A DNA stretch of 64,000 bases, taken from assembly GCA_016861205.1 (NCBI GenBank), contig BOKX01000001.1, forward strand, positions 988,758 to 1,052,757, in the 5' to 3' direction. The notes beneath the pieces were generated by a model that was given only the letters and a program-made list of their open reading frames with translations, was not told where the DNA came from and ran no database searches. Position 1 is the first letter of the stretch. The number at the start of each line of letters is the position of its first letter. Both the position numbers and the translations under genes were made by a program. This document shows positions 2,813-18,736 of this stretch, one piece after another. Source of the stretch: Patescibacteria group bacterium (GTDB lineage: Bacteria > Patescibacteriota > Microgenomatia > UBA1400 > PJMF01).

Positions 2813-4576
2813 ATGTCACAAAATAACGCACCATCCGAATCACTTGATCAACTTCGCCACTCAGCCGCGCACCTGCTGGCAGCCGCGGTTATGGAGCTAT
2901 GGCCAGATACCAAGCCGACGATAGGGCCAGCTATTGAAGATGGTTTTTACTACGACTTCGAGTTTGCTCAGCCGATCTCAGAGGCTGATTTTCCAGCTAT
3001 CGAAGCTAAGATGCATGAGCTGGTCAAAGACTGGTCGAGTTTCGGGCGGGAAGAAGTGTCGGCGGAAGAGGCAAAAAAGCGCTATGCACACAACGAATAC
3101 AAACTGCAATTGATCGAAAAATTTGCTGAGGAAGGGCAGACTTTAAGTCTCTATAAGTCCGGCCAGTTTGTTGATTTGTGCCGTGGTGGCCACGTTGATA
3201 ACCCAGCCAAAGCGTTACAGCACTTTAAGTTGCTGTCCTTGGCAGGTGCCTACTGGCTTGGTGACGAAAAAAATCCGATGTTGTCACGGATTTATGGCAC
3301 AGCTTTCCCAAGTGCCGATGAGTTGGCTGCGTATCTTGAACGCCGTGAACTAGCTAAGCAGCGTGACCACAAAAAACTGGGCAAAGAACTTGACCTATTT
3401 GTGTTCTCCGAAACAGTTGGGAAGGGTTTGCCACTCTGGACCCCCAGAGGTGCCGCCGTCCGTCGGGAGCTAGAACGGTTCATAGTCGACGAAGAGCTCA
3501 AGCGCGGCTATCTGCACGTTTATACACCAGATATCGCGAATTTGGCCCTCTACAAGAAGTCAGGGCACTATCCCTACTACAAGGACTCTATGTATGCGCC
3601 GATCGTCATTGATGATGACGAGTACATGCTGCGCCCGATGACCTGTCCGCACCACTTCGAGCTGTATTTGAGTCGGCCGCACTCGTACAAAGAACTGCCA
3701 ATGCGCTTTGCCGAGTTGGCGAAGCTGTACCGATATGAACAATCAGGTGAACTGAGTGGTTTACTGCGGGTGCGCAGTTTCTGTCTGGCTGATGCGCACA
3801 TTGTGTGTCGGCGTGAGCAAGCAGAGTCTGAGATCAATGGAGTGCTTGATTTGATCGAGTACATCGCGGGTGTCTTTGGCTTGAAAGCCGGTGAAAACTA
3901 CCACTATCGTTTGTCCTTGGGTGACCGAGCAGACGACAAAAAATACTTCAAGGATGACGAGTCTTGGGACTATGCCGAAAATGTCTTGCGCTCAGTGCTC
4001 AAGGCCCGCGAGGCGCACTTCGTAGAAGCTCCTCAAGAAGCAGCGTTCTATGGTCCAAAAATCGACGTCCAGATGAAAAACGTCAATGGAAAAGAAGATA
4101 CGGCCTTTACGGTACAGTATGACTTCGTGATGCCGAAACGATTTGACCTGAAGTACGTCAATGAACAGGGTGCTGAAGAGCAGCCGATTGTGGTCCATCG
4201 ATCATCGATCGGCGCGATTGAGCGGGTAATGGCGTTTTTGATTGAACACTATGGTGGTGCTTTCCCAGTTTGGTTGTCACCGGTTCAGGTCAAGTTGTTG
4301 CCGATCGCAGATCGACATCTCGACTATGCCAAACAAGTTTGGGCCAAGCTCCATGCTTTGGGTATCCGAGTTGAGCTGGACGATCGCTCAGAGCGCTTGT
4401 CGGCTAAAATTCGCGACGCGCAACTTGAGAAGGTGCCCTATATGGCTGTAATTGGTGACAAAGAGATGGCTGAAGACCAACTGACCCTGCGTCAGCGCGG
4501 CCAAAAAGAGCAATCGGTGCTCACCGTTGATGAGTTTGTGAAACAAATTCAGGCAGAGATAGCCAAAAAGCAGTAG
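2813..4576 (+). CDS. thrS: Threonyl-tRNA synthetase (short form lacking the N-terminal TGS domain)
   Basis: 587 aa with an editing/second additional domain (HSAAHLLAAAV), class II catalytic core and a C-terminal anticodon-binding domain. Strong overall ThrRS similarity. Confidence 0.95.
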   Translation: MSQNNAPSESLDQLRHSAAHLLAAAVMELWPDTKPTIGPAIEDGFYYDFEFAQPISEADFPAIEAKMHELVKDWSSFGREEVSAEEAKKRYAHNEYKLQLIEKFAEEGQTLSLYKSGQFVDLCRGGHVDNPAKALQHFKLLSLAGAYWLGDEKNPMLSRIYGTAFPSADELAAYLERRELAKQRDHKKLGKELDLFVFSETVGKGLPLWTPRGAAVRRELERFIVDEELKRGYLHVYTPDIANLALYKKSGHYPYYKDSMYAPIVIDDDEYMLRPMTCPHHFELYLSRPHSYKELPMRFAELAKLYRYEQSGELSGLLRVRSFCLADAHIVCRREQAESEINGVLDLIEYIAGVFGLKAGENYHYRLSLGDRADDKKYFKDDESWDYAENVLRSVLKAREAHFVEAPQEAAFYGPKIDVQMKNVNGKEDTAFTVQYDFVMPKRFDLKYVNEQGAEEQPIVVHRSSIGAIERVMAFLIEHYGGAFPVWLSPVQVKLLPIADRHLDYAKQVWAKLHALGIRVELDDRSERLSAKIRDAQLEKVPYMAVIGDKEMAEDQLTLRQRGQKEQSVLTVDEFVKQIQAEIAKKQ

Positions 4577-6894: not shown

Positions 6895-7650
6895 TTAGCG
6901 AAAACTGCTTTTTGGAGTGCTGTGCAAGAAGGTGCCGGTTGGGGTCAGGAGCTGCAGCTGTTCAGGGTAGGTGCTTTTGGGAGGTCCAAAAACGTTGATA
7001 ACGAGCTCGGCCTGCTGCAACACCGGCGGCAGGGGCAGTTGGTAGCCAAAAATGTGGGTGCAAATTTGCACGGTACCTTTTTCGGCTGCCTCGAGAATTG
7101 TTTGGCAGCTCACGATATCGTCATTGAGGTATCGAAGAGAGGTCCAGGTGGCAGGCAGGGTTTGTTGCAATTCGAGAAGTTGGCCAAGCAACTTCTGGTA
7201 TGAAAAGGCATCGTGAAGAACGATTTGCGGGAGAGCAGACTGTTTCTTTCGTAAAAGCAGCAGCAACTCTAGCCAAGCCAGACTCAAGCCGTTTCCTAAA
7301 ATGTCAATTTTTTTATCACCAACTTGCTCTACATGGTGCAGCAAAGTCGGCAGTTGCTCAATAGTTGCGGTCAATGTCCGGCGAGTGATGCCCAAACCAC
7401 CGATTTTTTCTCGACCGGCTGCCTTAGCAGCTATTTTATGTAGTTTCGAATCATCGTACGTGTGAATGTATTGTTGACTCAGGAAAAATGGATCATCAAT
7501 GTTGTCGAGGTACTCCAGCAATTCCTGCCGATTTGGCTCGCCCAACTCAACTTTGAAAGGGGCAAGCGTCAGACCGTAGCTGCCCTCATCGACACTGACT
7601 TGGACACTGCCTTCAGTATCAAGCAAACGGCGCTCACTAAGGGTGGGCAT
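6895..7650 (-). CDS. Hypothetical protein (251 aa) inserted between nusG and rplK; possible degenerate class-I methyltransferase fold
   Basis: ORF with weak motif-I-like KIDILGNGLS and a later acidic VLHDAF segment. No confident family assignment. Confidence 0.4.
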   Translation of the reverse strand: MPTLSERRLLDTEGSVQVSVDEGSYGLTLAPFKVELGEPNRQELLEYLDNIDDPFFLSQQYIHTYDDSKLHKIAAKAAGREKIGGLGITRRTLTATIEQLPTLLHHVEQVGDKKIDILGNGLSLAWLELLLLLRKKQSALPQIVLHDAFSYQKLLGQLLELQQTLPATWTSLRYLNDDIVSCQTILEAAEKGTVQICTHIFGYQLPLPPVLQQAELVINVFGPPKSTYPEQLQLLTPTGTFLHSTPKSSFR

Positions 7651-7659
7651 ACAGGAAAG

Positions 7660-8295
7660 TTAGACTTTTTGCACTTGCAAGAAGTCGAGTTCCACTGGGG
7701 TTTCGCGGCCAAAGATGCTGACCAGCACTTCGACTTTGCCTTTTTCTTCGTTGATGGTTTTGACTGTACCCAAGAAGTCGTTGAACGGGCCATCGACGAT
7801 GCGAACAGCTTCGCCTTCCACAAACTCGGCTTTGTATTGTGGCGTAGCCTGAGTCATGTACTTCTGGATAGCTTCCACTTCGTGGCGGGGCAGAGCGGTG
7901 GGTTTGTTGCCCATACCGACGAAGCCAGTCACGCCTTGAGTGGTGCGAACCGCTAACCATGAGGCGTCAGTCAGTTCCATTTGGACTAACATGTAGCCTG
8001 GGAAAATTTTCTCGTTCACGGTTTTGCGTTGACCACGTTTGATCTGAATTTTCTCTTGAGTTGGGATCAAAACAGCTAAGATGTAGTTGGTCAGGTTGAG
8101 GGTTTCAGCACGCTGCTTCAGAGTTTCAGCCACTTTGTTCTCATGACCTGAGTAGGTGTGCACCACGTACCAACGTGCTTTTTTGTTCTCAACAGGTGAG
8201 ATGACAATCATGTTGGGTGTGTTGACTTGCACTTCCTGAACTTCTGGTGGGGTGAGTGGTTCAGTGATGTCAGTGACAGGGGTGTTTTGATTCAT
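7660..8295 (-). CDS. nusG: Transcription termination/antitermination factor NusG
   Basis: NGN domain (RWYVVHTYSGHENKV…) and C-terminal KOW domain (GEAVRIVDGPFNDFLGTV). Start chosen at the ATG at 8295 (MNQNTPV…) so that it does not overlap secE; the ORF track extends to 8445. Confidence 0.85.
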   Translation of the reverse strand: MNQNTPVTDITEPLTPPEVQEVQVNTPNMIVISPVENKKARWYVVHTYSGHENKVAETLKQRAETLNLTNYILAVLIPTQEKIQIKRGQRKTVNEKIFPGYMLVQMELTDASWLAVRTTQGVTGFVGMGNKPTALPRHEVEAIQKYMTQATPQYKAEFVEGEAVRIVDGPFNDFLGTVKTINEEKGKVEVLVSIFGRETPVELDFLQVQKV

Positions 8296-8312
8296 ATCCG
8301 ATGTATTAAAAA

Positions 8313-8501
8313 TTAAACCTGAGTAATAAGTAAAGTAATGAGTCGCTGGAACACAAAGTCCAACGTTCCCACATACGCCCCAACGACTAAGCTGACGATT
8401 ACCACTAAAGCAGTCATTTCCCAGGTCTGTTGACGACTGGGCCAAGACACTTTTTGCAGTTCGGTCACGACTTCGCGGACGAATGTAGCAGGTTTGACCA
8501 T
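8313..8501 (-). CDS. secE: Preprotein translocase subunit SecE
   Basis: 62 aa with a single TM helix and the conserved SecE N-terminus (…ELQKVSWPSRQQT…). Immediately upstream of nusG. Confidence 0.8.
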   Translation of the reverse strand: MVKPATFVREVVTELQKVSWPSRQQTWEMTALVVIVSLVVGAYVGTLDFVFQRLITLLITQV

Positions 8502-13201: not shown

Positions 13202-13222
13202 CTGAATAGAAAGATACCTTGC

Positions 13223-13558
13223 ATGTCTGAAACAGCAGCCGGTGAAGGCCGAAATCTCAAAACATACACGTTGCTTGGTTTCGCTCCACAAACGCCCGAG
13301 AGTGAAGTGCTGCCGGAAGATGTGGATCAGTTTGTAACTGCAGTTTTGGCACTACCAACCATTCAAACTTGTGAAAAGGTGCTTGGGGAGATCCGAGATT
13401 TTTCAGTCTACACAGCTGTGGTTTTGGTAGTAACTGCAGAGGGCGACGCCCAACAAGTTGGCAATGATATCTTAGAGATGAAGAGAAAAGGTATCCCAAA
13501 CAGTGAAGTAACGTCAAAAACCTTCATTGTTTCGGATTTACCGATTACAATTGAATAA
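13223..13558 (+). CDS. Hypothetical small protein (111 aa) between two tRNA genes
   Basis: ORF beginning MSETAAGEG…. The longer track ORF (13160) would overlap tRNA-Thr, so the internal ATG is preferred. No recognised family. Confidence 0.35.
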   Translation: MSETAAGEGRNLKTYTLLGFAPQTPESEVLPEDVDQFVTAVLALPTIQTCEKVLGEIRDFSVYTAVVLVVTAEGDAQQVGNDILEMKRKGIPNSEVTSKTFIVSDLPITIE

Positions 13559-13571
13559 ACATTAACGACAA

Positions 13572-13657
13572 GCCTGGTTACCCAAGTGGTCAACGGGGGC
13601 AGACTGTAAATCTGCTGACATACGTCTTCGGAGGTTCGAATCCTTCACCAGGCACCC
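13572..13657 (+). tRNA. tRNA-Tyr (anticodon GTA), long variable arm
   Basis: Acceptor GCCTGGT/ACCAGGC, anticodon stem GCAGA/TCTGC with loop CTGTAAA, a 14-nt variable arm (stem gac/gtc), and T arm GGAGG-TTCGAAT-CCTTC. Confidence 0.8.
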
Positions 13658-13820
13658 CTTCACAAACTGTTTTTTCGCACTTCGCACTGACGTGAGGCGT
13701 TCGAAAAGACAGTTTGTTCAGGTTTAGTCGCTTCGCACGAGAGGTGCTCAAACACAAAAGTTTTTGTGCCTTTTACTTTCTTTTTCCCAACCAAGCAATT
13801 AAGTCGTTTGAATCAATGCT

Positions 13821-14333
13821 TTAAAACGGCTCGATTCTGAAGCCGAGATCTTTGCCCAGATAGTCTTGCCAGACCACATAGCTGAGCTCGATAGTGCGAT
13901 GGCCGAAAGCGCGGCCCTCAATGGCGTGGTTTTCGTCGTAGATCACCATTTCTTTGCCACCATCCAGAAACTCCAAGTTGTACTTGCGCTCGCGGAAGCC
14001 AAAGTGGTGCTTCAACTCCAAGTATGAACTGCTCAGCCAGCGACACTCGAGGATGATGTCGCCACGGTGGTAAGTGGTTTCAGCAAACTGAAACTCTTGA
14101 TTAACGTTTTTATTGGCAATTTCGCCAACATACTTCTCGAAGTAGTACTCTTTGGAGTGATACATGTAGTGGGTGATTTTGTAGCTGGTGAAGCGGGGAG
14201 AGATCAGGGGATAGCCCGCGAACTCACTCCCGAACTTTGCCCAAAGCAACGCCATGCCAGCTTCTAGAAAATGATCCATGGGCGAATTATACTGCGGTCC
14301 GGTATAATACCGAAGTGGAGTTCGCTTTGGCAA
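13821..14333 (-). CDS. Hypothetical protein (170 aa)
   Basis: ORF with ordinary composition; no motif recognised. Confidence 0.4.
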   Translation of the reverse strand: MPKRTPLRYYTGPQYNSPMDHFLEAGMALLWAKFGSEFAGYPLISPRFTSYKITHYMYHSKEYYFEKYVGEIANKNVNQEFQFAETTYHRGDIILECRWLSSSYLELKHHFGFRERKYNLEFLDGGKEMVIYDENHAIEGRAFGHRTIELSYVVWQDYLGKDLGFRIEPF

Positions 14334-14343
14334 CTTCGCAGCT

Positions 14344-14396
14344 GCCTCCTTAGCTCAGTGGTTAGAGCATCCCGCTGTAAGCGGGAGGGTCCAGAG
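14344..14396 (+). pseudogene. Truncated tRNA-like sequence. It duplicates the 5' half of the downstream tRNA-Thr(TGT) but has a different anticodon arm and no T-arm 3' strand or acceptor 3' strand.
   Basis: Positions 1-26 (GCCTCCTTAGCTCAGTGGTTAGAGCA) are identical to the tRNA at 14418. The anticodon arm is TCCCG-CTGTAAG-CGGGA (would read GTA). The sequence continues GGGTCCAGAG and then diverges to gtaaacttaacaag. Confidence 0.45.
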
Positions 14397-14417
14397 GTAA
14401 ACTTAACAAGTAAATAT

Positions 14418-14490
14418 GCCTCCTTAGCTCAGTGGTTAGAGCACCTGTTTTGTAAACAGGGGGTCCAGAGTTCGAATCTCTGAGGGGGCT
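14418..14490 (+). tRNA. tRNA-Thr (anticodon TGT)
   Basis: Acceptor GCCTCCT/AGGGGGC (one G-U), D arm GCTC-AGTGGTTA-GAGC, anticodon stem CCTGT/ACAGG with loop TTTGTAA, T arm CAGAG-TTCGAAT-CTCTG. 73 nt. Confidence 0.8.
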
Positions 14491-14597
14491 CAAAAATGCT
14501 CTAAACAGTATATCGGCGTTCAAAGAGTTCCTCTCTAGCAAAACGAGCATTTTTTGTGTATACTACCAGTTCTGTAACGCGAAAAACGTAAAGATAT

Positions 14598-14801
14598 ATG
14601 GCAAAAAAGAAAAAAGGCCCCCGACAAGCAACTGGTTTGAAGTGCAAAGTGTGTAGCAACTTTAACTACATTACTGAGTACAACAAAATGAACGAACAGC
14701 TCAAGAAGCAAACGACCGGCGAGAGTACTTTCCCTCTGATGAAGTACTGCAAACGCTGCCGCAAGAGCACTGAGCACGTCATGTCCAAGAAGTTGAAGTA
14801 A
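14598..14801 (+). CDS. rpmG: 50S ribosomal protein L33
   Basis: 67 aa, Lys-rich, with two CxxC pairs (CKVCSNFNY…CKRCRKSTEH) forming the L33 zinc ribbon. Possible extended -10 (tgtgtatact) about 30 nt upstream. Confidence 0.7.
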   Translation: MAKKKKGPRQATGLKCKVCSNFNYITEYNKMNEQLKKQTTGESTFPLMKYCKRCRKSTEHVMSKKLK

Positions 14802-14845: not shown

Positions 14846-16171
14846 CTAAGATTTCGACTCTGTCTGTGCCACGTTGGCGATGTTTTTGGCACCTTCCAAG
14901 AAAAGGGGCTCAAGAGTTTGGGCGGTTTGCATGGCTTGCTCAATCCAGGACTGTGCCTGATGATGGGCACTCATTAAGGTTTTCAACTGTTCCCAGATGT
15001 GTTCAGCTTGTGCCTGACGCGCGATGCCTTTTTGTTCAAAAATCGACCGGATATTGTGTTCCCACTCACCCCACTCGTTGAGGGTCAACAAGAAACAGCC
15101 AGCCGCAGCTGCGTCGTAGGCCATGTCGCCTGATGGTTTCGAGATAAAGCCATCAGCCCAAGGGAAGCCGTACTTTATCAGTAGCTCATTGGCATCCACA
15201 ATCTGAGGATGGTAAATCAGGCGGAGTTTCTGGCGGGAGTCGGTCAGAGCACCAATCTTGACGCGGTGTTCCTTAGCTACCTCACGAACAAGATCGCAGA
15301 AATCACTGTTGGTGCCACCATAGACCAGGATTCGCAGCCGACTGTCTGGTTTACGTAACTCTGGCAGGAGTTGCTCCAAAATCGTTTTGATCTCAGTCTT
15401 GTTGGTGCCCAAGCCGCCCGTGGTCAAACACAGCTTCAGCAAGCCACTGCGCCAAGGGTGTTTGCGGCTGCGGACCGCTAAGATGCGTGGGTCAACTGGG
15501 GGACCGGTCACGATGATGCGTTCGGGATCAGGGTGCAGACCACGAATCATGGCCTTTTCCAAAAACTCAATCTTGGTTCGCTCGTCGAACACGCAAAACT
15601 TGATGTTAGGACGATCGGCGTTGTCCAAGTAGTCATCGCGAACGTGCGGATCAGTAATGACCTGAATGACGGACTTGCCTTGTTCGGCCAAGATATTTCC
15701 AGCTGCGATGTGCAGGGACAAAATGGGATGCTTGACGTTTTGGGTCAGGTGCAGCAGCGGCGGGGTGATGCTAGTCAGGATCGGCAGTTTGGAGCGACCA
15801 AACTTGTCGACTAAGTCTTTGACAAACTTGAGAAGTGGATGGCGGGCCAAAGTTCGGCCAACTTGTTGCGTGAACTCCACTTTGCGCCACTCTTTTTGGC
15901 TGACGTAGTTGGTGGGGTCAACGATCCATGCCTTGGTGGGGCGAATTTTATCACCCCAAACAGAGACGGCGATGGCGACCGCCATCGAGTAGTGAGCGCG
16001 TGACAGTACGATATCGGGCTGAGTATTGTTGGCGGGCATGCCATACCAATCTTTCAAGTCTTCTCGGTAACTAGCAGACACCGTGACCATGGGCAACTGG
16101 GTTTGCTCTAGAACTGATTTATCCTTGGCTAAGGCGAGAGTGAGGTGGGGATCAAGCAGGGAAGCGGGCAT
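14846..16171 (-). CDS. Glycosyltransferase family 28-like (MGDG synthase/UgtP-type diacylglycerol glycosyltransferase family)
   Basis: 441 aa. The C-terminal half (…ILVYGGTNSDF…SKPSGDMAYDAAAAGCFLLTLNEWGEWE…) resembles the GT-B C-terminal donor-binding domain of MGDG synthase/MurG-like enzymes. Confidence 0.5.
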   Translation of the reverse strand: MPASLLDPHLTLALAKDKSVLEQTQLPMVTVSASYREDLKDWYGMPANNTQPDIVLSRAHYSMAVAIAVSVWGDKIRPTKAWIVDPTNYVSQKEWRKVEFTQQVGRTLARHPLLKFVKDLVDKFGRSKLPILTSITPPLLHLTQNVKHPILSLHIAAGNILAEQGKSVIQVITDPHVRDDYLDNADRPNIKFCVFDERTKIEFLEKAMIRGLHPDPERIIVTGPPVDPRILAVRSRKHPWRSGLLKLCLTTGGLGTNKTEIKTILEQLLPELRKPDSRLRILVYGGTNSDFCDLVREVAKEHRVKIGALTDSRQKLRLIYHPQIVDANELLIKYGFPWADGFISKPSGDMAYDAAAAGCFLLTLNEWGEWEHNIRSIFEQKGIARQAQAEHIWEQLKTLMSAHHQAQSWIEQAMQTAQTLEPLFLEGAKNIANVAQTESKS

Positions 16172-16289
16172 AGGTACTTGTCAGTGTAACGGTTGGAGCG
16201 GTTGCTGAAAAGTAGTTGCAGGGAGAGCAGCATCTACGTTAGAATCGCCAACATTCAGTACTTACGCCTGCCCGCCCGAGGAGGTCCGT

Positions 16290-16733
16290 GTGCCTGTTTT
16301 CAGAGAAATGAGCCAAGCTCAAGCTGTAATCGAAAAACACTTGGGGATTCCAGCCAACGCTGTGACGCCCGACTACGCTATGTACTTGCTTGAGCAGTAT
16401 TGCGTTGATAACGTCCTGCTACCTGGTGAGGAGTTGGCCATAACTGAAGAGATGCCACAACGGGTGGTTAACGACCCAGTTATCCGGGATGCTATTTTTG
16501 AGGCATTGTCATTCTTAGCGACAGCTTCCGGTACCCATCCTCGTGAAGCTGCCCCTAAAATCAGTGATCGTCGCCGTGGCCGCGCGCTGAGTGAACTTCG
16601 CAACAATGTGCCAGGCCGCCGGTACAAGTTCCGTCCGGGCAGAATGATTGAGGCACAAGATGGGTTTGGCCCCGTGTCTGACAAGTACGCTCAACTGCAC
16701 CGTGGGCAGCTTGATGTGGACGCCAGCGTTTAG
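16290..16733 (+). CDS. Hypothetical protein (147 aa)
   Basis: ORF preceded by a plausible sigma70 promoter (TTGCAG-18 nt-TAGAAT at about 16216-16235). No motif recognised. Confidence 0.4.
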   Translation: MPVFREMSQAQAVIEKHLGIPANAVTPDYAMYLLEQYCVDNVLLPGEELAITEEMPQRVVNDPVIRDAIFEALSFLATASGTHPREAAPKISDRRRGRALSELRNNVPGRRYKFRPGRMIEAQDGFGPVSDKYAQLHRGQLDVDASV

Positions 16734-16756
16734 CCATAGACTCTAATTGTCTAACG

Positions 16757-16776
16757 CTCTCGAGTCACCTATAATG
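16757..16776 (+). promoter_or_regulatory. Putative sigma70-type promoter for the HNH endonuclease gene
   Basis: TTGTCT, 17-nt spacer, TATAAT (16757-16782 region), about 75 nt upstream of the GTG start. Local sequence is AT-rich. Confidence 0.4.
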
Positions 16777-16853
16777 CTGGCCAGCAGCTATCTTGGTAGA
16801 ACGTTGGTCTCCAAATGTTTTATATATTGGAGTCGTAATGATAAAATAAAGGG

Positions 16854-17300
16854 GTGCTCTGTGGGAGATGCAAACTAAACAAAGATATCAATAATTTCTC
16901 GCTAAAGAACAGAGAAAAAGGTCGGTATCATAGTGTTTGCAAGGCATGTCATTCTGAGTATAGAAGGCAGCATTATCTGAGTCACAAAGCGAAGTATCTG
17001 ACGAAGGCGATGCATTGGAATAAACGACAAAAAGAAGTATTAATCCAATATCTCTTTCAAAAGTTGTCGAATTCAAAATGCGTAGATTGTGGTGAAAAAG
17101 ATATTTTGGTTTTGGATTTTGACCACATCAAGGAAAAAGAGTTTAACATCGCTGTGCTATTTAAAAAAAGATGTGCCATAAAAACTCTTGAGAAAGAGTT
17201 GAACAAGTGTGAAGTCCGATGTGCCAACTGTCATCGAAGAAAAACGGCTAAAGAAATTGGTTCTTGGAAGTACAAGATGATAAATGAAATAGGGGCGTAG
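16854..17300 (+). CDS. HNH endonuclease (GTG start). Its last 10 nt overlap the 5' end of tRNA-Trp.
   Basis: CGRCKLNKD…CKAC and C-terminal …DFDHIKEKEFNIAV…NKCEVRCANCHRRK. The D-H-(N)-H catalytic motif is flanked by CxxC pairs. Low-GC, Lys-rich composition. Confidence 0.75.
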   Translation: MLCGRCKLNKDINNFSLKNREKGRYHSVCKACHSEYRRQHYLSHKAKYLTKAMHWNKRQKEVLIQYLFQKLSNSKCVDCGEKDILVLDFDHIKEKEFNIAVLFKKRCAIKTLEKELNKCEVRCANCHRRKTAKEIGSWKYKMINEIGA

Positions 17301-17363
17301 GTTAACGGTAGACCTGATCTCTCCAAAAGATCTAGTGAGGGTTCGACTCCTTCCGCCCCTGCA
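17291..17363 (+). tRNA. tRNA-Trp (anticodon CCA)
   Basis: Acceptor AGGGGCG/CGCCCCT, D arm GGTT-AACGGTA-GACC, anticodon stem GATCT/AGATC with loop CTCCAAA, T arm GAGGG-TTCGACT-CCTTC, discriminator G. Confidence 0.8.
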
Positions 17364-17443
17364 GCATTCTTGATGTCAAAAGCGCCAAGAATGTTCCTCA
17401 AACACGGTTCAACCTCTTTGCCTCCTTTACACTTCCCACAATT

Positions 17444-18736
17444 TTGATTACTTTGGTACTTAGTATGAACGAAGGTCTTTCCCGTCGTGATCTGCTGAAG
17501 CTGGGAGCTGCCGCGGCTGGGGCTTATCTGGCCAGTCGATTTCTAAAAGAAAAGCCCGAGCCTGATTTGGAACAGGTAGATTTTGAGGGTCACGTTTTCT
17601 TGATAGACAAAGAGGGTATTCCTCACTCTTGTCGCACCAAAGAAGGAACTGAAATAACCTTTAACATAGGTGATCTCCGACGGGCTCAGACAGAAGCCAA
17701 AAATCTGAAAGCTGATCGAGTGGGGGAAACATTTGCGGCCCGCCAAGAAAAAGAAGTTCCCGCCGTTGGTGGTGTAGAGCGACCACTGACTACCGAGTTG
17801 CCTGATGATATTGTTCCCGCTGAAAAACTTCAGCAACAGTATGGGATTAAGATTGTGCAGAGTGACATCACCCAGCTGCACATCCGTGAGAGTGCTTTTG
17901 CGCAAGGTGGTTTGCTAGAAGAGTTTGCTCGGGGAGGCAGAGATCTGACTATAGCCCTGATTCAGGCCCCATTTCTTATTCGTAGATACTTTGCCAACGA
18001 GAAGTATCGTGACTTGCCAACTACCAACATTGAAGGTGGGGTGGTGGGTGATTTTGGCAAAGATTTACCCTCTGATCAATTTCCAACGCCAGCTCAGTAC
18101 GAGGAGCTGCGGCAACAAAAAATCTTGGCGTTAAAGAAAATTATTTTGCAAACACAAGACAAATCACAACTTCTTGAGTTACTGGCTGATATTCATGCCT
18201 ATGCGAGTGGCATTGTAACTGATGAAGATTTGCTCTACGAAAGTACGAACGGTAGGATGCTGGCAGCAGGATTGTATGATCAACAGTGGAGTGAAGAAGG
18301 CAGTAAAGATTATATCTTTTTGGCGGTTGATGATCGTTTGCCGCGAGACTTAATGGCGGTGTGTTTTGACAAAGATGGCAAGTTTTTTCCCAAAAAATAC
18401 ACGATGTTGGCGCTACAGAATGCCCGCGTTCGTCCGCCGCAACCATGGCAGTCGCACCCAGATGGTGCTCACGCGTATACATATGCGGCGGCTTCAGATC
18501 AGGAAGGAACCATTGGTTTTAACTTGCGTCATGAGCTGGGGCATGATCGGCTGCGGTTGGATAATTTGAGAGATAGCGAGCAGGGGATAAATGATCAAAC
18601 CAAGCAAAGATTGCAGGCAGACTGGCGTCAGTGGCAAGAGAGTGGTTTTGGACGAACTGACCAAAAAGGCGACGAAGTATATCCTTTTGTTTTTTCAATT
18701 CCACCAGCGTTGGGTGGGGGGTACATTTTAACTTAA
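17444..18736 (+). CDS. Putative secreted zinc metallopeptidase-like protein with a twin-arginine (Tat) signal
   Basis: N-terminal SRRDLLKLGAAAAGAYLAS matches the Tat S/T-R-R-x-F-L-K pattern. An HExxH motif sits in FNLRHELGHDRL. 430 aa. Confidence 0.5.
   Translation: MITLVLSMNEGLSRRDLLKLGAAAAGAYLASRFLKEKPEPDLEQVDFEGHVFLIDKEGIPHSCRTKEGTEITFNIGDLRRAQTEAKNLKADRVGETFAARQEKEVPAVGGVERPLTTELPDDIVPAEKLQQQYGIKIVQSDITQLHIRESAFAQGGLLEEFARGGRDLTIALIQAPFLIRRYFANEKYRDLPTTNIEGGVVGDFGKDLPSDQFPTPAQYEELRQQKILALKKIILQTQDKSQLLELLADIHAYASGIVTDEDLLYESTNGRMLAAGLYDQQWSEEGSKDYIFLAVDDRLPRDLMAVCFDKDGKFFPKKYTMLALQNARVRPPQPWQSHPDGAHAYTYAAASDQEGTIGFNLRHELGHDRLRLDNLRDSEQGINDQTKQRLQADWRQWQESGFGRTDQKGDEVYPFVFSIPPALGGGYILT

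What the first reader, a model, noticed from the sequence alone, without database searches (positions are those of the whole stretch)
16740..17363. AT-rich HNH endonuclease gene with its own canonical promoter, ending inside tRNA-Trp
The 148-aa HNH gene (16854..17300, GTG start) has a marked drop in GC and a Lys-rich product. A near-consensus TTGTCT-17 nt-TATAAT promoter sits upstream, and its stop codon lies 10 nt into tRNA-Trp(CCA).

tRNA-Trp normally sits directly upstream of secE-nusG. Here it has been separated from them by about 9 kb, and an HNH nuclease is lodged at its 5' flank. This has the look of a free-standing homing-type endonuclease that inserted next to a tRNA. It may be responsible for local rearrangement of the rpmG / tRNA-Trp / secE cluster.
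Basis: partly seen in the sequence, partly recalled or inferred. Interest (0 to 1): 0.55.

Follow-up and report, generated by a model that had tools for sequence, protein, structure and literature searches.

The report
tRNA-targeting HNH homing endonuclease cassette
The AT-rich gene is a selfish HNH nuclease cassette lodged between tRNA-Trp and that tRNA's own promoter; it belongs to a large, apparently undescribed family in bacteria and phages that sits against the 5' end of tRNA genes and carries a short sequence complementary to that tRNA's anticodon loop.

Summary
A 148-aa HNH ORF (16854-17300, GC 0.36 against 0.50) ends in a TAG formed by tRNA-Trp positions 8-10, and TTGTCT-17-TATAAT lies upstream.

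This is a mobile homing-type element. A strain with 98.6% identical neighbour protein (L171) lacks the HNH. It has the same promoter 34 nt upstream of a different tRNA-Trp allele (44/72 identical). The promoter is therefore the tRNA's, not the nuclease's, and the tRNA allele travels with the HNH.

The gene order, with secE-nusG about 9 kb away and inverted, is the same in an HNH-less relative (L170). The HNH did not cause that rearrangement.

This is a family trait:
- In 61 of 80 genome loci from at least six phyla, the ORF abuts a same-strand tRNA (Trp, Arg, Pro). In 28 the stop is the tRNA's U8-A9-G10.
- Phage homologs sit the same way inside tRNA arrays.
- Eleven of 66 cellular loci keep an upstream copy of the tRNA's 5' half, ending at position 38/39, about 46 nt before the HNH start.
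- Thirty-one of 100 loci carry the reverse complement of the cognate anticodon loop, across twelve anticodons.

I found no description of this architecture. The cleavage mechanism and the role of the hairpin are inferred, not shown.

The parts
16747..16775 (+). Sigma-70-type promoter TTGTCT-17-TATAAT. It is the native tRNA-Trp promoter, now about 515 bp from the tRNA.
   Evidence: Scan: 10/12, best in the region. The same sequence occurs in HNH-less strain L171, where it lies 34 nt upstream of tRNA-Trp, and in HNH+ strains L172 and L173.
16776..16791 (+). 5' leader shared with the HNH-less allele. The alignment between HNH+ and HNH- strains ends at about 16791.
   Evidence: blastn of window 16172-16791 against L171 1759-2378 gives 91% and then breaks. 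Alignments A3 and one search agree.
16794..16815 (+). Degraded remnant of a tRNA-Trp 5' half (positions about 15-38), ending in the anticodon loop CTCCAAA.
   Evidence: 19/22 identical to L012-type tRNA-Trp. The nine best hits among 868 tRNAs, and 11 of the top 12, are tRNA-Trp. Shuffle z is about 2.7. It resembles the HNH-less relatives' GGTCTCCAAA arm, not the window's working tRNA. It ends 38 nt before the HNH start, close to the family pattern of 43-50 nt. Part of it can alternatively be aligned to the L171 leader, so its extent is uncertain.
16809..16832 (+). Inverted repeat or hairpin. The 5' arm CTCCAA(A) at 16809-16815 is a copy of the anticodon loop. The 3' arm TTGGAG at 16827-16832 is its complement.
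   Evidence: Family-wide, a reverse complement of at least 6 nt of the cognate anticodon loop occurs in 31/100 loci (permutation mean 3.1, max 8), and 7/7 in 19 (control 0.76). Both arms are present in 25 loci across 11 anticodons. The fold of the window copy alone is not significant (z -1.0).
16819..16847 (+). Cassette-internal promoter-like site TTTATA-17-(TG)TAAAAT. The -10 element ends 6 nt before the GTG, a leaderless-type layout.
   Evidence: Scan 9/12 with TG extension. The same layout (TTGAyT-17-TAnAAT, start codon 5-8 nt after -10) occurs in Arg-type cassettes. Such promoters occur in 17/99 loci against 1.8 in shuffles.
16854..17300 (+). HNH endonuclease gene, 148 aa, GTG start. It has an N-terminal CxxC...CxxC zinc ribbon, a long helical region and a C-terminal beta-beta-alpha-metal HNH domain. 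The last 10 nt lie inside tRNA-Trp.
   Evidence: NCBI annotates only the C-terminal 96 aa (P0001). The N-terminal cysteines C3, C6, C29 and C32 are invariant in homologs, which supports the long form.
17291..17362 (+). tRNA-Trp(CCA), intact. The allele is linked to the HNH: 72/72 with HNH+ strain L172, 64/72 with HNH+ L007, and 44/72 with conspecific HNH-less L171.

Best explanation
The locus holds a free-standing HNH homing-endonuclease cassette of a large tRNA-targeting family. The order is: native tRNA-Trp promoter, short leader, degraded tRNA-Trp 5'-half remnant, anticodon-loop hairpin with a weak internal promoter, HNH ORF, intact tRNA-Trp.

Shown:
- The cassette is present or absent among near-identical strains.
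- The tRNA allele is inherited with the HNH.
- There is no room for a promoter between the ORF and the tRNA. The tRNA must therefore be transcribed through the HNH gene.
- The geometry recurs in hundreds of loci in bacteria and phages, against different tRNAs.

Inferred:
- The enzyme recognises the tRNA gene around the anticodon arm and cuts near position 38/39. That is where the upstream 5'-half remnants end.
- The break is repaired from an HNH-bearing copy. With flanking homology, within a species, the whole tRNA is co-converted. With only tRNA homology, the recipient's own 5' half is left upstream as a pseudogene, and the cassette supplies a replacement. The essential tRNA then stays intact without any splicing.
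- Expression is low and tied to the tRNA transcript. RNase P cleavage at tRNA +1 removes the stop codon from the HNH message, as was proposed for T4 SegB.
- The anticodon-loop hairpin is a selected part of the cassette. My best guess is a target-like operator or RNA structure that controls the cassette promoter.
For: 1. Empty sites. L171 is the same species by neighbour identity and lacks the HNH. It has the identical promoter, a 34-nt leader and a different tRNA-Trp allele. L167-L170 also lack it.
2. Co-conversion. The window tRNA-Trp is 44/72 identical to L171's but 64/72 to L007's (HNH+). L171 and L167 share 69/72. All five HNH-less alleles share AGGTCTCCAAAACCT. All three HNH+ alleles of this clade have compensated changes in that stem.
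3. Family pattern. 61/80 genome loci abut a same-strand tRNA. In 53 the ORF stops inside the tRNA, and 28 of those use U8-A9-G10 as TAG. 31/80 IMG/VR loci do the same inside tRNA arrays. PegLeg gp102 overlaps tRNA-Met by 10 nt.
4. 5'-half remnants. They occur in 11/66 cellular loci (z 5.7-26) and, where their end is preserved (7 loci), stop at canonical position 38-39, 43-50 nt before the HNH start. There are no matching 3'-half remnants downstream.
5. Target tracks protein phylogeny. The nearest neighbour shares the tRNA in 68/95 cases, against 22 by chance.
6. Tandem copies lie in front of one tRNA, and many library proteins have 2-4 repeats of the domain.
7. HNH fold and catalytic residues.
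8. Precedents. SegB and T5 F-Tfl nucleases sit in phage tRNA clusters, and processing of tRNA-Arg removes the segB stop codon (PMC2330249). HNH genes are noted in phage and mycobacterial tRNA arrays (PMC5966550, PMC6409571, PMC6582537).
Against: - There is no biochemical evidence. Nuclease activity, the cleavage site and the target are all inferred.
- Remnants are detectable in only 11/66 cellular loci.
- Tandem copies do not show the 5' half between them that the simple model predicts.
- In the window, the HNH+/HNH- difference covers the whole tRNA and starts in the leader. The window's remnant was therefore probably imported with the cassette, not made in this genome.
- HNH GC tracks host GC (r = 0.92), which implies long residence in lineages.
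- Several other Trp-type HNH+ loci keep the GGTCTCCAAAACC core, so 'immunity by stem changes' is not general.
- The start is GTG with a poor Shine-Dalgarno sequence, so the window copy may be barely expressed.
Confidence: 0.75

Rival explanations
1. The HNH gene is a passive passenger. A phage-derived 'HNH + tRNA' module was acquired by ordinary recombination or transduction. The nuclease has another role, such as phage DNA packaging, or none, and does not drive its own spread.
For: The family is abundant in tRNA-bearing phages. The whole tRNA allele differs between HNH+ and HNH- strains. The window copy has a weak GTG start.
Against: No phage genes flank it, and it sits exactly at the native tRNA-Trp locus behind the native promoter. 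The HNH-linked tRNA resembles a Patescibacteria tRNA-Trp (L007, 64/72). The constant junction geometry, the remnants ending at 38/39 and the anticodon-loop motif across 12 anticodons are hard to obtain by random recombination. All catalytic residues are conserved.
Confidence: 0.12
2. It is a degenerate or unrecognised self-splicing intron in the tRNA anticodon loop that carries an HNH ORF. The hairpin is its P1 helix (5' exon paired to an internal guide).
For: Group I introns, some with HNH genes, do occur in anticodon loops of Patescibacteria tRNAs (PMC13011429). The remnant ends in the anticodon loop. The arm pairing resembles P1 and covaries with the 'exon'.
Against: No group I or II model matches 16600-17500 even at E <= 10. 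Only about 38-46 nt lie between the remnant and the ORF, and none between the ORF and the tRNA, so there is no room for a ribozyme core. The downstream tRNA is complete, with its own 5' half. The hairpin has no U.G pair at the would-be splice site. That paper reports no group I intron at 37/38 and none outside the anticodon loop, so the 38/39 junction inferred here, at the loop-stem boundary, is not one of its group I insertion sites.
Confidence: 0.04
3. It is a domesticated host gene, inherited vertically, with a cellular function linked to tRNA-Trp expression.
For: The same position is occupied in L006 and L007, with HNH identity (61%, 55%) similar to the neighbour gene's (62%, 60%). HNH GC tracks host GC.
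Against: Closer relatives, and one conspecific strain, lack it. The distribution is patchy: 409 hits in 185,579 species genomes. Related copies sit against many other tRNAs and in phages.
Confidence: 0.04

Closest known systems
Phage T4 SegB, and T5 F-TflI/II/IV: free-standing homing endonucleases inside phage tRNA gene clusters (PMC2330249)
   Same: A free-standing nuclease gene sits directly upstream of a tRNA gene. The ORF end is coupled to the tRNA 5' end, so tRNA processing separates the stop codon from the message. The nuclease promotes inheritance of the adjacent tRNA region.
   Different: SegB is GIY-YIG, not HNH. Those cases are described only in phage co-infection. No duplicated tRNA half or anticodon-loop inverted repeat is reported. 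Here the host is the single chromosomal tRNA-Trp of a small-genome bacterium.
HNH endonuclease genes in tRNA arrays of mycobacteriophages (cluster M PegLeg, Bongo, Rey; cluster C) and mycobacterial plasmids and chromosomes (PMC5966550, PMC6409571, PMC6582537; Pope et al. 2014, not held)
   Same: It is the same protein family (tblastn 30-39% identity). PegLeg gp102 overlaps tRNA-Met by 10 nt and has TTATGAG, the complement of the Met anticodon loop, 8 nt upstream.
   Different: Those papers note only the presence of the genes and suggest a role in tRNA repertoire diversity. I found no description of the junction geometry, the 5'-half remnants, the loop-complement motif or the invasion of housekeeping tRNA genes in six or more bacterial phyla.
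Group I introns with HNH homing endonuclease genes in tRNA anticodon loops of Patescibacteria (PMC13011429)
   Same: Same phylum and the same kind of target (tRNA anticodon loop). An HNH nuclease is the mobility gene. A 5'-exon/guide-like pairing is present.
   Different: No ribozyme is present. The tRNA is kept intact by carrying a replacement copy instead of by splicing.
Integrase-borne genomic islands that insert into tRNA genes and restore them with a duplicated 3' segment
   Same: They target an essential, conserved tRNA gene and keep it functional by duplicating part of it, leaving a partial tRNA copy as a scar.
   Different: The duplication here is mirror-image (5' half, upstream). No integrase is present. 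The element is about 0.5 kb with one nuclease gene. True 3'-end island scars also occur at this same tRNA in strain L172 and are a separate phenomenon.
I-TevI autorepression through an operator that resembles its homing site (recalled from Edgell et al. 2004, not checked here)
   Same: It is a possible model for the target-like inverted repeat that straddles the -35 region of the cassette promoter.
   Different: This is purely an analogy. No binding data exist. Two compensatory double changes in the arms fit a base-paired hairpin better than a protein operator.

Membership tests
HNH (beta-beta-alpha-metal) nuclease superfamily | Conserved D-H general base, Asn, and a C-terminal N/H metal ligand, framed by two CxxC zinc pairs | tested here: met
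   C76, C79, D90, H91, C123, N125, C126 and H127 are invariant in 22 homologs, including the window protein.
HNH (beta-beta-alpha-metal) nuclease superfamily | Significant match to a curated HNH profile | tested here: inconclusive
   Pfam PF01844 gives 11.2 bits against a cut-off of 21.4, E 0.43. PHROG 2255 'HNH endonuclease' gives E 5e-30. NCBIfam gives nothing.
HNH (beta-beta-alpha-metal) nuclease superfamily | Beta-beta-alpha-metal fold | tested here: inconclusive
Free-standing homing endonuclease gene | Presence or absence of the gene at the same locus in closely related genomes | tested here: met
   The window, L172 and L173 carry it. L171 lacks it, with neighbour proteins 95.6-100% identical. 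L167-L170 also lack it.
Free-standing homing endonuclease gene | Co-conversion of flanking target sequence with the nuclease gene | tested here: met
   The tRNA-Trp allele is 72/72 among HNH+ strains, 44/72 against the conspecific HNH- strain and 64/72 against distant HNH+ L007.
Free-standing homing endonuclease gene | Site-specific cleavage of the nuclease-less allele near the insertion point | not testable with these tools
   This is inferred only from remnant ends at tRNA position 38/39.
Group I intron | Conserved catalytic core (P3-P9) detectable by covariance model, with the host gene interrupted | tested here: not met
   There is no Rfam hit at E <= 10 in 16600-17500. The downstream tRNA is complete.
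Integrase-type tRNA-targeting island | Tyrosine or serine recombinase gene, and a direct repeat of the tRNA 3' end | tested here: not met
   The HNH is the only gene between the remnant and the tRNA. No 3'-half repeat lies within 200 nt downstream, and no copy of the resident-type 3' half occurs in the window.
SegB-like (GIY-YIG) tRNA-cluster homing endonucleases | GIY-YIG catalytic domain | tested here: not met
   The protein has the HNH motif and no GIY-YIG match. It works like SegB but is not a member.

The most novel reading that the evidence does not exclude
The 7-10 nt motif upstream of each HNH gene, which is exactly complementary to the anticodon loop (and sometimes positions 30-39) of whichever tRNA the cassette sits against, is a guide. 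It would specify the target by base pairing, as RNA or single-stranded DNA, with the loop displayed by the anticodon hairpin. That would make a small, naturally re-programmable nuclease element, in which target switches need only a change of the motif. L122 (Thr) and L148 (Lys) are 63% identical yet sit against different tRNAs.
Probability: 0.1. Interest if true: 0.9.

Novelty: new variant of a known kind. Interest (0 to 1): 0.62.

Why it matters
Homing endonuclease genes normally avoid killing their host gene in one of two ways. They hide in a self-splicing intron or intein, or they sit between genes. This family appears to use a third way. It invades an essential tRNA gene and brings a replacement copy, leaving the old 5' half behind.

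The family is large. The profile search found 936 clusters (50% identity) at E <= 1e-30 and 14,601 at E <= 1e-10. It spans tRNA-rich phages and the single-copy housekeeping tRNAs of Patescibacteria, Chloroflexota, Acidobacteriota, Dependentiae and others.

It could therefore explain three things: how tRNA alleles move between lineages, why phage tRNA arrays are mosaic, and why some tRNA genes have long protein-coding leaders.

The anticodon-loop complement covaries with twelve anticodons. It gives a concrete, testable handle on how these nucleases are regulated or targeted.

For annotation, the gene is mis-called as 96 aa. The degraded tRNA half and the promoter assignment would also be missed by standard pipelines.

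Tried and rejected
- Partial tRNA or intron upstream of the HNH, by Rfam at E <= 10: nothing. The remnant was detected only by direct alignment to collected tRNAs.
- PDB sequence search with the family profile: no relative.
- Vertical inheritance since the ancestor shared with L006 and L007. This was suggested by equal divergence of the HNH and its neighbour. I rejected it once closer HNH-less relatives and an HNH-less conspecific strain were found.
- The window's remnant as the displaced resident 5' half of this genome. This was weakened: the HNH+/HNH- difference starts in the leader and includes the whole tRNA, so the remnant was probably imported. An earlier MAFFT alignment that paired the leader GGCCAG with an acceptor stem was misleading.
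- 3'-half remnants downstream, as a whole-tRNA insertion model would predict: none systematic, and none of the resident type in the window.
- Allowing G.U pairs to separate an RNA role from a DNA role for the motif: uninformative (36/99 against control 13.3).
- RNA fold of the window hairpin: not better than shuffles.
- 5' halves between tandem HNH copies: not found.
- Link to T5 F-Tfl nucleases: the enterobacterial phage hits are Felix-O1-like, not T5.
- Other HNH copies in the window: none.

Full report
**1. The observation**

The ORF 16854..17300 (+, GTG, 148 aa) exists. It is Lys-rich, with 24 of 148 residues. Its GC is 0.36, against 0.50 for the window.

ARAGORN and Rfam place tRNA-Trp(CCA) at 17291..17362. 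The ORF's TAG (17298-17300) is tRNA positions 8-10. The C-terminal I-G-A is therefore read from the acceptor stem.

TTGTCT-17-TATAAT lies at 16747-16775 and is the best promoter-like site in 3.2 kb. The cluster genes are nusG 7660-8445 (-), secE 8325-8501 (-), rplK and rplA further on, and rpmG 14598-14798 (+). The stated 9-kb separation holds.

**2. What the protein is**

- Pfam HNH is sub-threshold. PHROG 2255 'HNH endonuclease' matches at E 5e-30.
- In an alignment of 22 homologs, two N-terminal CxxC pairs and C76/C79, D90-H91, C123-x-N125-C126-H127 are invariant.
- No solved structure is a sequence relative.
- The public annotation of this genome calls only the C-terminal 96 aa (P0001). 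Conservation of the N-terminal zinc ribbon supports the 148-aa form.

**3. The position against a tRNA is a family trait**

The nearest homolog (62% identical, L004/L006) also ends on tRNA-Trp.

A scan of one genome per species found 409 relatives. I examined the best 80:
- In 61, the ORF abuts a same-strand tRNA.
- In 53, it stops inside the tRNA.
- In 28, the stop is the tRNA's own U8-A9-G10 read as TAG.

The closest homologs sit on tRNA-Trp (14 loci). More distant ones sit on tRNA-Arg(TCG) (40 loci), Arg(TCT/CCG/ACG) and Pro(TGG). The hosts include many Patescibacteria classes, Chloroflexota, Acidobacteriota, Dependentiae, Eremiobacterota, Armatimonadota and Nitrospirae.

In IMG/VR, 326 relatives were found. 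Full-length ones lie inside tRNA arrays and abut Cys, Asn, Val, Gln, Thr, Lys, Glu, Phe, Leu, Trp and Arg tRNAs in the same way (31 of 80). Shorter relatives that lack the N-terminal region have no tRNA nearby.

GenBank phages with hits are tRNA-rich actinophages, Felix-O1-like, PAK_P1-like and crAss-like phages. In PegLeg, the annotated gp102 overlaps tRNA-Met by 10 nt.

The nearest protein neighbour shares the target tRNA in 68 of 95 cases, against 22 by chance. A profile search gives 936 clusters at E <= 1e-30 and 14,601 at E <= 1e-10. Many of these proteins hold two to four copies of the domain. This matches the tandem copies seen in front of one tRNA in L030, L050, L053, L071, L072 and L084.

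**4. Architecture upstream of the gene**

*Remnants.* In 11 of 66 cellular loci, the 160 nt upstream of the HNH contain a significant copy of the 5' half of the downstream tRNA (z 5.7-26). L083 matches 38 of 40 positions. Where its end is preserved (7 of the 11 loci), the copy runs from position 1 to canonical position 38-39, and ends 43-50 nt before the HNH start. Matching 3'-half copies downstream are absent.

*Promoter.* In Arg-type cassettes the roughly 46-nt spacer is a sigma-70 promoter (TTGAyT-17-TAnAAT). The start codon lies 5-8 nt after the -10 element. Such promoters occur in 17 of 99 loci, against 1.8 in shuffles.

*Loop complement.* The 70 nt upstream of the start contain the exact reverse complement of the anticodon loop (positions 32-38) of the tRNA that follows:
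- At least 6 nt in 31 of 100 loci (permutation control mean 3.1, max 8).
- All 7 nt in 19 loci (control 0.76, max 3).
- It is seen for Trp, Arg-TCG, Arg-ACG, Pro, Lys-TTT, Lys-CTT, Glu, Met, Gln, Thr, Ile and Cys.

*Hairpin.* In 25 loci a copy of the loop itself lies 8-22 nt upstream (8-14 nt in 21 of them), which gives a hairpin or inverted repeat. In Trp-type loci the rest of the remnant has decayed, but both arms persist. L104 and L144 show compensatory double changes at position 32. The -35 element lies in the hairpin loop.

**5. The window in this light**

From 5' to 3':
- promoter, 16747-16775
- 16-nt leader
- TGGTAGAACGTTGGTCTCCAAA, 16794-16815. This matches tRNA-Trp positions 15-38. 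The nine best hits among 868 tRNAs, and 11 of the top 12, are tRNA-Trp
- 3' arm TTGGAG, 16827-32
- promoter-like TTTATA-17-TAAAAT, ending 6 nt before the GTG
- HNH ORF
- tRNA-Trp

*Strain comparison.* Three close strains were recovered through the orphan ORF147. L172 and L173 carry the HNH (96.6% aa identity). L171 does not. In L171 the same promoter is followed by a 34-nt leader and a tRNA-Trp that is only 44/72 identical to the window's. L171 is otherwise very close: the 441-aa neighbour is 98.6% identical, the downstream 430-aa protein 95.6%, and DUF5674 100%.

*tRNA alleles.* L171's allele equals that of the next relative, L167 (69/72). The window's allele resembles that of HNH+ L007 (64/72). 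L167-L170 (neighbour gene 77-62% identical) also lack the HNH. All five HNH-less alleles share AGGTCTCCAAAACCT. The three HNH+ alleles of this clade have compensated changes in that stem. This suggests, but does not show, that the stem is part of the recognition site.

*What follows.* The promoter is the tRNA's. The cassette and a foreign tRNA allele replaced the resident tRNA. Because the HNH+/HNH- difference begins in the leader (about 16791), the window's remnant was probably imported with the cassette.

**6. The rearrangement claim**

HNH-less L170 has the same gene order and orientations as the window. Chloroflexota L013 and L015 keep nusG-rplK after tRNA-Trp with the HNH present. The HNH is not the cause.

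What does vary between strains is the DNA 3' of tRNA-Trp:
- a toxin-antitoxin and acetyltransferase block in L171
- a NUDIX block in L172 and L173
- decayed 3'-half copies of the tRNA 2 kb downstream in L172

These are the usual scars of integrase-type islands.

**7. Mechanism**

*Shown:*
- presence and absence polymorphism
- linkage of the tRNA allele to the HNH
- obligatory co-transcription, since there is no space for, and no match to, a promoter between the ORF and the tRNA
- the recurrent junction geometry

*Inferred:*
- cleavage near position 38/39
- repair from an HNH+ copy, with either flank homology (whole-tRNA co-conversion) or tRNA-only homology (5'-half duplication)
- loss of the stop codon on RNase P processing, as proposed for segB (PMC2330249)
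- a regulatory or targeting role for the hairpin

HNH GC is about 8 points below the flanks in 70 of 74 cellular loci but tracks host GC (r = 0.92). Low GC is therefore a family property, and residence times are long.

**8. Comparison with what is known**

HNH genes in phage and mycobacterial tRNA arrays are on record, and a homing role has been suggested (PMC5966550, PMC6409571, PMC6582537). SegB is the experimental precedent (PMC2330249). Group I introns with HNH genes occur in Patescibacteria tRNAs (PMC13011429).

In eight full-text searches I found no description of any of the following:
- the stop-in-tRNA geometry for this family
- the 5'-half remnants
- the anticodon-loop complement
- the invasion of chromosomal single-copy tRNA genes across phyla

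Pope et al. 2014 could not be read. I rate the finding a new variant of a known kind.

**9. Caveats**

- The sample is the best 80 loci of each scan. Many records are metagenome bins with unreliable taxon labels.
- HNH start codons in the surveys were estimated from alignments.
- Loci are phylogenetically related, so counts are not independent events. The twelve different anticodons are the safer measure of independence.
- The role of the hairpin is unresolved.

Noticed in passing
window 14346-14400: A truncated tRNA-like copy lies 17 nt upstream of tRNA-Thr(TGT) (14418-14491). Its acceptor 5' strand and D arm are identical to that tRNA's (GCCTCCTTAGCTCAGTGGTTAGAGCA). Its anticodon arm is different (TCCCG-CTGTAAG-CGGGA). 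It includes the start of the T arm and then breaks off. ARAGORN and Rfam do not call it.
   Followed up: no
window 13203-13571 and 13657-14417: The Thr-Tyr-Thr tRNA trio is spread out by two inserts that are absent in relatives such as L170, where the three tRNAs are 13-36 nt apart. One is an ORF of about 111 aa (ATG 13224 to 13558) that ends 13 nt before tRNA-Tyr. The other is a 170-aa ORF on the minus strand (13821-14333). Neither has a Pfam or PHROG match.
   Followed up: partly
window 16290-16733: The 147-aa ORF between the 441-aa gene and the tRNA-Trp promoter is an orphan. It is found only in three near-identical strains. It is only 89-90% identical there, while its neighbour is 98-99% identical. 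It is absent from relatives at 77% neighbour identity and below, where the intergenic region is as short as 69 nt in the closest relative, L167.
   Followed up: partly
L172 4119-4169 and 4409-4445; L171 2469-4628: The DNA 3' of tRNA-Trp differs between strains. L171 has a Gp49/HTH toxin-antitoxin and acetyltransferase block. L172 and L173 have a NUDIX block. L172 also keeps two decayed copies of the tRNA 3' half about 2 kb downstream. This looks like integrase-type island traffic at the same tRNA, independent of the HNH.
   Followed up: partly
L170 about 3928-3975 (reverse strand), against window 16838-16847: In HNH-less relative L170, the tRNA-Trp leader contains TTGGAG (the complement of the Trp anticodon loop) 2 nt before the tRNA. 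It also contains AATGATAAAAT, identical to the -10 region of the window's cassette-internal promoter. This could be chance, or a footprint of a lost cassette.
   Followed up: no
window 6895-7650 (-): A 251-aa ORF with no Pfam or PHROG match lies between nusG and rplK, a gene pair that is normally adjacent.
   Followed up: no
L030, L050, L053, L071, L072, L084; proteins P0243-P0260: Two or more HNH copies occur in tandem before one tRNA, and library proteins of 250-465 aa contain 2-4 copies of the domain. In some cases the tandem copies are apparently fused into one reading frame. No tRNA half was detected between the copies.
   Followed up: partly
window 14846-16171 (-): The 441-aa neighbour has no Pfam match, yet it is very widely conserved in Patescibacteria. 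952 proteins reached E <= 1e-20, and the top-listed ones are mostly about 60-66% identical. It usually lies next to rpmG and tRNA-Trp. It is a conserved gene of unknown function.
   Followed up: no
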